The position numbers and the translations under genes were made by a program. Source: a virus (taxonomy: Duplodnaviria > Heunggongvirae > Uroviricota > Caudoviricetes). Taken from it: a stretch of DNA of 64,000 nt. The stretch lies in the IMG/VR virus record IMGVR_UViG_3300031418_000001. One strand, 5' to 3'. Numbering within the stretch: the stretch's first letter is position 1; each line of letters begins with the position of its first letter. Under the pieces are notes generated by a model. The model was not told the origin of the DNA, did not search any database, and saw nothing but the letters and a program-made list of their open reading frames with translations. Below, one piece after another: positions 37,688-38,953 of the stretch.

Positions 37688-38953
37688 ATGCCAGAACTAA
37701 TTAAAGACGGACGTAAACTTGTCACCGTAAGAAAAATTACTGATATTCAGCCAATTGCTAATGCTGATGCAATTGAACTTGCTATTGTTGATGGATGGCA
37801 GACGGTAATTAAAAAAGGTGAATTTTCAATTGGAGAGTACTGTGTGTACTTTGAAATTGATTCTTTTTTACCAGCGAATGATCCTAAGTTTGCATTCCTT
37901 TTAAAAAGCGGTACTAAAACTGACGAAGCTGGAGTAGAACGCATCCGTTTAAAGAGTATTAGACTTCGCGGGGAAATCTCTCAAGGTCTTGCATTACCAA
38001 TTAGTCAGTTTGAATCAGTACTTGAAGAAATTGATAACTTCAATGGTAATCACCCTGACAGTTATACTTCAGTTGCACGTGAATTATTACTTGAAGAACT
38101 TGAACAAACACGAGACGGCATCGAACAGTTTCTGAATGTTACCAAGTACGAACGTCCATCTGAGCGGAATGGCGGTACTGGAGCAGGCAACGCTAAAACT
38201 GCTGGAACCTTTCCGGTATTCATCCCTAAAACTGATGAAGATCGTTTACAGAACCTGTACGGAAAATACAGTAATAATTATAAAGACGTTGAATTCCGTC
38301 CAAGCCTGAAACTTGACGGTTCCAGCATTACAGTTGCTTACGTTACTAATCCGTCATTCTTCCTGGATAAGCTGGATGATGTTCATGTTAGTTTCAATGA
38401 ACATACTCAGGAAGTTGAAACTACCGACATTCCATATCCTCATGATTATGGTGATGCACAGGGTATTGTTTGTTCTCGTAACCTTGCACTGAAGTACGAT
38501 CCTAAAGCTAAGTTTTGGATGGGCGTTAATAACATTGATTTGATGACCCGCCTGAAAACATACTGTGACGAATATGGTCGCTCTATTGCTATTCAGGGTG
38601 AACTTATGGGTGAAGGTATTCAGGGCAACCGTGAAAAGTTCAGTAAGTACGAAATCTTTGCATTCCGTATTTGGGATATTGATAATCAGGAATTTCTTGA
38701 TGATGCAGATTTCATTGAAGTTTGTGAAATTCTGCAAGTTAGTACTGTACCGCAGTTTCCTATTATCAAACCATTTGAAAAATACAGTACTTTGAAAGAG
38801 TTTCTTGAAGCATCTGAGATTAAAAGTATTAATCATCCAATTGCTGAAGGTATTGTTTATAAAAGTGTTAAGAAAGTGGAACTATATGGTAAGTTAATTA
38901 CTTTGCACTTCAAAGTAATTAATAACAAGTTCCTTCTGAAATGTGAGGATTAA
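37688..38953 (+). CDS. ATP-dependent RNA ligase with N-terminal tRNA-binding (Myf/EMAP-like OB) domain
   Basis: residues ~15-105 (KITDIQPIANADAIELAIVDGWQTVIKKGEFSIGEYCVYFEIDSFLP ... IRLRGEISQGLALP) match the tRNA-binding domain of MetRS-C/PheT-N/CsaA/Trbp111; the C-terminal part has ligase motifs I KLDGS, III IQGELMGEG and IV EGIVYK. Confidence 0.7.
   Translation: MPELIKDGRKLVTVRKITDIQPIANADAIELAIVDGWQTVIKKGEFSIGEYCVYFEIDSFLPANDPKFAFLLKSGTKTDEAGVERIRLKSIRLRGEISQGLALPISQFESVLEEIDNFNGNHPDSYTSVARELLLEELEQTRDGIEQFLNVTKYERPSERNGGTGAGNAKTAGTFPVFIPKTDEDRLQNLYGKYSNNYKDVEFRPSLKLDGSSITVAYVTNPSFFLDKLDDVHVSFNEHTQEVETTDIPYPHDYGDAQGIVCSRNLALKYDPKAKFWMGVNNIDLMTRLKTYCDEYGRSIAIQGELMGEGIQGNREKFSKYEIFAFRIWDIDNQEFLDDADFIEVCEILQVSTVPQFPIIKPFEKYSTLKEFLEASEIKSINHPIAEGIVYKSVKKVELYGKLITLHFKVINNKFLLKCED

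What the first reader, a model, noticed from the sequence alone, without database searches (positions are those of the whole stretch)
37688..38953. RNA ligase carrying its own tRNA-binding (Myf/EMAP-type) domain
The N-terminal ~100 aa matches the OB-fold tRNA-binding domain found at MetRS C-termini, PheT N-termini, CsaA and Trbp111. The match covers the hydrophobic core, the ANADAIELAIVDG stretch and the LRGEISQGL terminal strand. The C-terminal part carries covalent nucleotidyltransferase (Rnl) motifs I KLDGS, III GELMGEG and IV EGIVYK. T4 uses Rnl1 plus Pnkp to reverse anticodon-nuclease damage. A ligase with a built-in tRNA-recognition module would be a substrate-targeted tRNA repair enzyme. 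As far as I know this architecture has not been biochemically characterised.
Basis: partly seen in the sequence, partly recalled or inferred. Interest (0 to 1): 0.8.

Follow-up and report, generated by a model that had tools for sequence, protein, structure and literature searches.

The report
Phage Rnl5-family nick-sealing RNA ligase
This gene encodes an ordinary member of the Rnl5 family of RNA ligases, whose N-terminal tRNA-synthetase-like OB domain fused to a ligase domain has already been studied biochemically and crystallised, so the architecture is real but not new.

Summary
It is a clear member of the Rnl5 RNA ligase family (Deinococcus DraRnl, Naegleria NgrRnl). It scores 276.8 bits against NCBIfam equivalog TIGR02306 (cutoff 151). 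It hits Pfam PF21189 (8e-35) plus PF09414 (1e-17). It matches NgrRnl crystal structures end to end (7e-46; Foldseek E about 1e-31, TM 0.89). All nine NgrRnl active-site residues are conserved.

The claim that the architecture is uncharacterised is wrong. In DraRnl and NgrRnl the OB module promotes lysine adenylylation by contacting the ATP gamma-phosphate. It is dispensable for sealing a pre-adenylylated nick, and the substrate is a duplex nick with a 3'-OH RNA strand.

Homologs occur in 335 deposited phage genomes. The biological target in this roughly 349-kb jumbo phage remains unknown. The neighbourhood is RNA-repair-rich, so RNA repair is plausible. Interest is low.

The parts
37688..38953 (+). 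Complete ORF, 421 aa: Rnl5-family ATP-dependent RNA ligase
   Evidence: ORF list. NCBIfam TIGR02306 equivalog 276.8 bits against a cutoff of 151. PHROG 968 'RNA ligase' E 1.9e-105. PDB NgrRnl 5cot E 7e-46. Foldseek to NgrRnl E about 1e-31, TM 0.89.
37677..37681 (+). Shine-Dalgarno AAGGA, 6 nt before the ATG, overlapping the TAA stop of the upstream ORF (37271..37678)
   Evidence: Read directly from the sequence.
37718..38002 (+). N-terminal OB-fold domain (residues 11-105), Pfam PF21189; tRNA_bind-like fold. It contains R9, D58, R87 and the RLRGEISQG strand.
38000..38110 (+). Linker (residues 105-141) predicted as two helices. It is expanded in the jumbo-phage subclade: 37 aa against 10-16 aa in shorter homologs and about 4 aa in NgrRnl.
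   Evidence: Alignment A1, segment lengths, secondary structure of the model, gaps in the alignment to 5cot.
38111..38950 (+). C-terminal nucleotidyltransferase (adenylyltransferase) domain, residues 142-421. There is no further C-terminal appendage; the protein ends 12 residues after the motif V lysine.
   Evidence: Pfam PF09414, alignment to NgrRnl, Foldseek.
38309..38323 (+). Motif I KLDGS. K208 is the predicted AMP-accepting lysine (NgrRnl K170) and D210 corresponds to NgrRnl D172.
   Evidence: Alignment to 5cot. K208 is invariant in 47 of 47 sequences; D210 is D in 44 and E in 3.
38336..38467 (+). Insertion between motif I and motif Ia (residues 217-260), predicted as beta-hairpins. It is 44 aa here, 27-31 aa in shorter phage homologs and about 8 aa in NgrRnl. 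Function unknown.
38474..38482 (+). Motif Ia S263-R264-N265, invariant
   Evidence: Invariant columns of A1.
38597..38617 (+). Motif III GELMGEG; E305 corresponds to NgrRnl E227
38846..38863 (+). Motif IV EGIVYK; E387 corresponds to NgrRnl E312
38906..38929 (+). Motif V HFKVINNK; K409 corresponds to NgrRnl K326

Best explanation
The gene encodes an Rnl5-family ATP-dependent polynucleotide ligase of a roughly 349-kb jumbo phage. The mechanism is inferred by homology to DraRnl and NgrRnl. In step 1, K208 (motif I) attacks the alpha-phosphate of ATP with two Mn2+ ions and forms ligase-AMP. The N-terminal OB domain closes over the active site, and R9, D58 and K153 together with R186 hold the gamma-phosphate and second metal so that pyrophosphate leaves in line. 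In step 2, AMP is passed to the 5'-PO4 of a nick. In step 3, the 3'-OH of an RNA strand attacks to seal the nick. The expected substrate is a 3'-OH(RNA)/5'-PO4 nick held in a duplex. The OB domain is an ancient relative of the tRNA_bind (PheRS-B2/Trbp111/EMAPII) OB fold that has been recruited as a catalytic accessory module, not as a demonstrated tRNA-recognition module. My leaning, held with only moderate confidence, is that in this phage the enzyme is the sealing component of the phage's RNA-damage repair gene set. It would reseal broken host or phage RNAs whose ends are held together by base pairing. A role at RNA-DNA junction nicks in replication or repair is the main alternative. The confidence of 0.9 applies to the family assignment and enzymatic mechanism; the RNA-repair role alone is about 0.5.
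For: Family membership: TIGR02306 equivalog scores above its cutoff, Pfam gives PF21189 plus PF09414, and PHROG 968 matches at 2e-105. NgrRnl matches at 7e-46 over three stretches that span the protein. The full-length model (pLDDT 91.9) superposes on NgrRnl structures at TM 0.89.

Catalytic residues: R9, D58, K153, R186, K208, E305, E387 and K409 are invariant in 47 homologs. D210 is D in 44 and E in 3.

Role of the OB domain: PMC7261155, PMC4408790 and PMC1807946.

RNA-repair leaning: the window also encodes a Thg1-like protein, RlaP, Band_7, a DUF2828/DUF7788 protein that matches PHROG 850 'RNA-binding protein', a weak 2H-SAK hit, a CCA-adding enzyme, a weak PTH2 hit, YqeY and S30AE. The order is the same in Xanthomonas phage XaC1. 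Sinorhizobium phage phiN3 has a comparable context. Iyer et al. 2021 describe such gene sets in jumbo phages.
Against: No biochemistry exists for any phage Rnl5, and the family's physiological functions are described as 'uncharted'. The only in-vivo datum, the DraRnl knockout, points to DNA 'ribo-patch' repair. In three other phage clades the gene lies next to DNA replication genes. No polynucleotide 5'-kinase was recognised in the part of the window with Pfam annotation, so healing of nuclease-cut ends cannot be accounted for locally. The two clade-specific insertions (residues 105-141 and 217-260) have no characterised counterpart and could alter substrate choice.
Confidence: 0.9

Rival explanations
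1. The N-terminal OB domain is a functional tRNA-binding module that targets the ligase to broken tRNAs, for example anticodon-nuclease products. The enzyme would then be a self-contained, substrate-targeted tRNA repair ligase.
For: The closest structural relatives of the OB domain, apart from NgrRnl, are all tRNA_bind-type domains. The shared motif register is recovered by hhalign. The residues of the shared RLRGxxSQG motif are highly conserved: S98, Q99 and G100 are invariant. Their apparent DraRnl equivalents (R84, R86, E88, Q91; mapped by spacing, which is an inference) were individually dispensable for nick sealing in vitro. That leaves room for an untested function. The window contains tRNA-end repair genes: Thg1-like, a CCA-adding enzyme and RlaP.
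Against: The Pfam tRNA_bind model does not detect the domain at E<=10, while genuine members score 1e-25 to 1e-33. In DraRnl and NgrRnl the domain's demonstrated job is adenylylation, and its removal does not impair, or even improves, sealing at a pre-adenylylated nick. So it is not the main nucleic-acid recognition element. Rnl5 enzymes need a duplex nick. Aeromonas T4-like phages carry Rnl5 in addition to the dedicated tRNA-repair pair RnlA plus PseT. There are no tRNA genes and no Rfam hits in the 64-kb window.
Confidence: 0.15
2. The enzyme works on DNA metabolism rather than RNA repair. It would seal nicks where a 3'-OH ribonucleotide tract abuts 5'-PO4 DNA, such as ribo-patches from gap filling or primer remnants, during phage replication, recombination or repair.
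For: DraRnl and NgrRnl seal RNA-OH/pDNA nicks. Loss of DraRnl sensitises Deinococcus to ionising radiation and delays genome reassembly, and the authors propose ribo-patch DNA repair. In Aeromonas phage Aes012 the gene lies between rnh/gp59/SSB and frd/td. In Pseudomonas phage Ab03 it lies about 1.5 kb upstream of the primase/helicase and DNA polymerase I genes. In BcepSauron it lies directly after the topoisomerase genes.
Against: In this window and in XaC1 the surrounding genes are RNA-centred or translation-centred rather than replication genes. The contexts in other phages are only a handful of examples and were not analysed statistically.
Confidence: 0.3
3. The ORF is a decayed or non-functional ligase homolog retained without catalytic activity.
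For: None specific. This was considered only because the protein carries two insertions relative to the characterised enzymes.
Against: All catalytic residues are invariant. The ORF is intact and has a good ribosome-binding site. The inserts are conserved in length across the subclade and are modelled with high confidence. The identical protein is found on 7 independent contigs.
Confidence: 0.02

Closest known systems
Naegleria gruberi RNA ligase NgrRnl (Rnl5 family; PDB 5cot, 5cou, 6vt0-6vtg)
   Same: Same domain order: N-terminal OB, then NTase, with no C-terminal appendage. About 30% identity overall and 47-48% in the OB domain. All ATP- and metal-contacting residues are conserved. Model-to-structure TM is 0.89.
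   Different: The phage protein is 81 aa longer. It has a helical expansion of the interdomain linker (residues 105-141) and a beta-hairpin insertion after motif I (residues 217-260). It is viral rather than eukaryal.
Deinococcus radiodurans RNA ligase DraRnl (DRB0094; founding member, TIGR02306)
   Same: The equivalog-level HMM match is above the curated cutoff. It has the same architecture. The N-domain Arg essential in DraRnl (R79) appears to correspond to the invariant R87 here; this mapping is an inference from motif spacing.
   Different: The DraRnl sequence was not aligned here directly. DraRnl is a cellular enzyme with a DNA-repair phenotype, and it lacks the phage-subclade insertions (342 aa against 421 aa).
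Annotated phage homologs: Xanthomonas phage XaC1 gp247, Cronobacter phage GAP32, Pectobacterium phage CBB, Yersinia phage fHe-Yen9-04, Aeromonas phage 44RR2.8t ORF209c
   Same: Identity is 62% to XaC1 by tblastn, 57-59% to the other four Rak2/GAP32-like jumbo phages and 48% to 44RR2.8t. All are full length, and several are already annotated 'RNA ligase'. XaC1 shares the gene order around the ligase. 44RR2.8t was listed as a DraRnl homolog in 2007.
   Different: None of the phage proteins has been studied biochemically.
tRNA_bind (PF01588) OB domains: PheRS beta B2, MetRS C-terminus, Trbp111/YgjH, CsaA, Arc1p, EMAPII/p43
   Different: There is no significant Pfam hit, and Pfam places the domain in its own family, PF21189. 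Here it contributes ATP gamma-phosphate and metal ligands to a ligase active site. No tRNA binding has been shown.
T4 Rnl1 and T4 Rnl2
   Same: They share the covalent lysyl-AMP NTase core. Foldseek E is 4e-7 for Rnl2 and about 1e-4 for Rnl1, over the NTase domain only. Rnl2 shares the nick-sealing specificity in vitro.
   Different: Rnl1 and Rnl2 carry family-specific C-terminal helical domains, and the Rnl1 C-domain confers tRNA specificity. This protein has none and instead has the N-terminal OB.

Membership tests
Rnl5 RNA ligase family (DraRnl/NgrRnl) | Domain order is N-terminal OB module followed by a C-terminal nucleotidyltransferase domain, with no C-terminal appendage | tested here: met
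   Pfam PF21189 (residues 11-105) plus PF09414 (208-397). The protein ends 12 residues after the motif V lysine. The model superposes on NgrRnl at TM 0.89.
Rnl5 RNA ligase family (DraRnl/NgrRnl) | Curated family HMM (TIGR02306, equivalog) scores above the trusted cutoff | tested here: met
   276.8 bits against a cutoff of 151.15.
Rnl5 RNA ligase family (DraRnl/NgrRnl) | [quoted passage not shown] | tested here: met
   K208, D210, S263-R264-N265, E305, F326, E387 and K409 align to NgrRnl K170, D172, E227, E312 and K326. They are invariant or at least 90% conserved.
Rnl5 RNA ligase family (DraRnl/NgrRnl) | OB-domain residues that contact the ATP gamma-phosphate and second metal (NgrRnl R4, D53, K121) | tested here: met
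   R9, D58 and K153 are invariant in 47 of 47 sequences. Their role is taken from PMC7261155.
Rnl5 RNA ligase family (DraRnl/NgrRnl) | ATP/Mn2+-dependent sealing of duplex nicks with a 3'-OH RNA strand, and an OB domain required for step 1 but not step 3 | not testable with these tools
   This needs the purified enzyme. It is inferred from DraRnl and NgrRnl.
tRNA_bind / Myf / EMAPII-type tRNA-binding domain (PF01588) | Significant match to the Pfam tRNA_bind profile | tested here: not met
   No hit at E<=10 for the N-domain, or at E<=1 for the whole protein. E. coli PheT, YgjH and MetG controls score 1e-25 to 1e-33. The N-domain profile finds no tRNA_bind chain in the PDB at E<=10.
tRNA_bind / Myf / EMAPII-type tRNA-binding domain (PF01588) | OB fold of the tRNA_bind subtype, meaning closest structural neighbours are PheRS-B2, Trbp111, CsaA and EMAPII | tested here: met
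tRNA_bind / Myf / EMAPII-type tRNA-binding domain (PF01588) | Profile-profile sequence homology | tested here: inconclusive
   hhalign against an 83-sequence tRNA_bind profile gives probability 28% and P=6e-4 over 70 columns in the expected register. The reversed control gives probability 1.7% and P=0.03. With a 3-sequence profile the probability was 6%.
tRNA_bind / Myf / EMAPII-type tRNA-binding domain (PF01588) | Binds tRNA | not testable with these tools
The papers read here report no tRNA-binding test for any Rnl5 enzyme.
Rnl1 (T4 RnlA-type tRNA repair ligase) | C-terminal all-helical domain that confers tRNA specificity | tested here: not met
   There is no sequence after the NTase domain. 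Foldseek to T4 Rnl1 gives only E about 1e-4 over the NTase core. No Rnl1 family hit appears in Pfam or NCBIfam.
Rnl2 (T4 Rnl2 / kinetoplastid REL) | Family HMM TIGR02307 and the Rnl2 C-terminal domain | tested here: not met
   TIGR02307 scores 15.7 bits against a cutoff of 197, and there is no C-terminal domain.

The most novel reading that the evidence does not exclude
In this jumbo-phage subclade the Rnl5 ligase may have been specialised for tRNA or structured-RNA repair. The subclade is marked by a roughly 25-aa helical linker expansion and a beta-hairpin insertion after motif I. The tRNA_bind-like OB domain would dock the enzyme onto broken tRNAs. Its most conserved strand, RLRGxxSQG, appears dispensable for generic nick sealing in DraRnl. 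The ligase would work with the Thg1-like, RlaP and CCA-adding enzymes, the 2H and HAD-like hydrolases and the TROVE-like 'RNA-binding protein' encoded in the same region. That would give Rnl5, a family with no assigned RNA substrate, its first physiological target.
Probability: 0.12. Interest if true: 0.55.

Novelty: already known. Interest (0 to 1): 0.15.

Why it matters
It matters little as a discovery. The OB-plus-ligase architecture that made the finding look novel is the textbook definition of the Rnl5 family, which has crystal structures and detailed mutagenesis. Homologs are already annotated as RNA ligase in hundreds of phage genomes. The remaining open question is general to the family: what do Rnl5 ligases seal in vivo, RNA breaks or ribonucleotide-containing DNA nicks? 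Phage members, with their compact and informative gene neighbourhoods, could be a convenient system for answering it. This phage, with its dense set of RNA-end-repair genes, is one such case.

Tried and rejected
1. A direct Pfam tRNA_bind match for the N-domain gave no hit, even at E<=10.
2. A search of the PDB with the N-domain profile found only NgrRnl; no tRNA_bind chains appeared at E<=10.
3. hhalign against a 3-sequence E. coli tRNA_bind profile gave probability 6%. I enlarged the profile with 80 genomic loci, which raised it to 28% and P=6e-4. This is still not significant on its own.
4. I looked for tRNA genes or known RNA families near the ligase. There are none in the window at gathering thresholds. 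The three sub-threshold Rfam hits in 30-50 kb (E 0.12-0.84) look like chance.
5. I tested whether the membrane ORF upstream of the ligase is homologous to the membrane protein upstream of Rnl5 in Aeromonas phage Aes012. BLASTP found no similarity, so that linkage idea was dropped.
6. The DUF2828/DUF7788 neighbour has no sequence match to any solved structure, including Ro60, at E<=1.
8. Model coordinates are not exposed to scripts, so I could not map the insertions relative to the nucleic-acid-binding surface.
9. The pseudogene or inactive-homolog reading was rejected because every catalytic residue is conserved.
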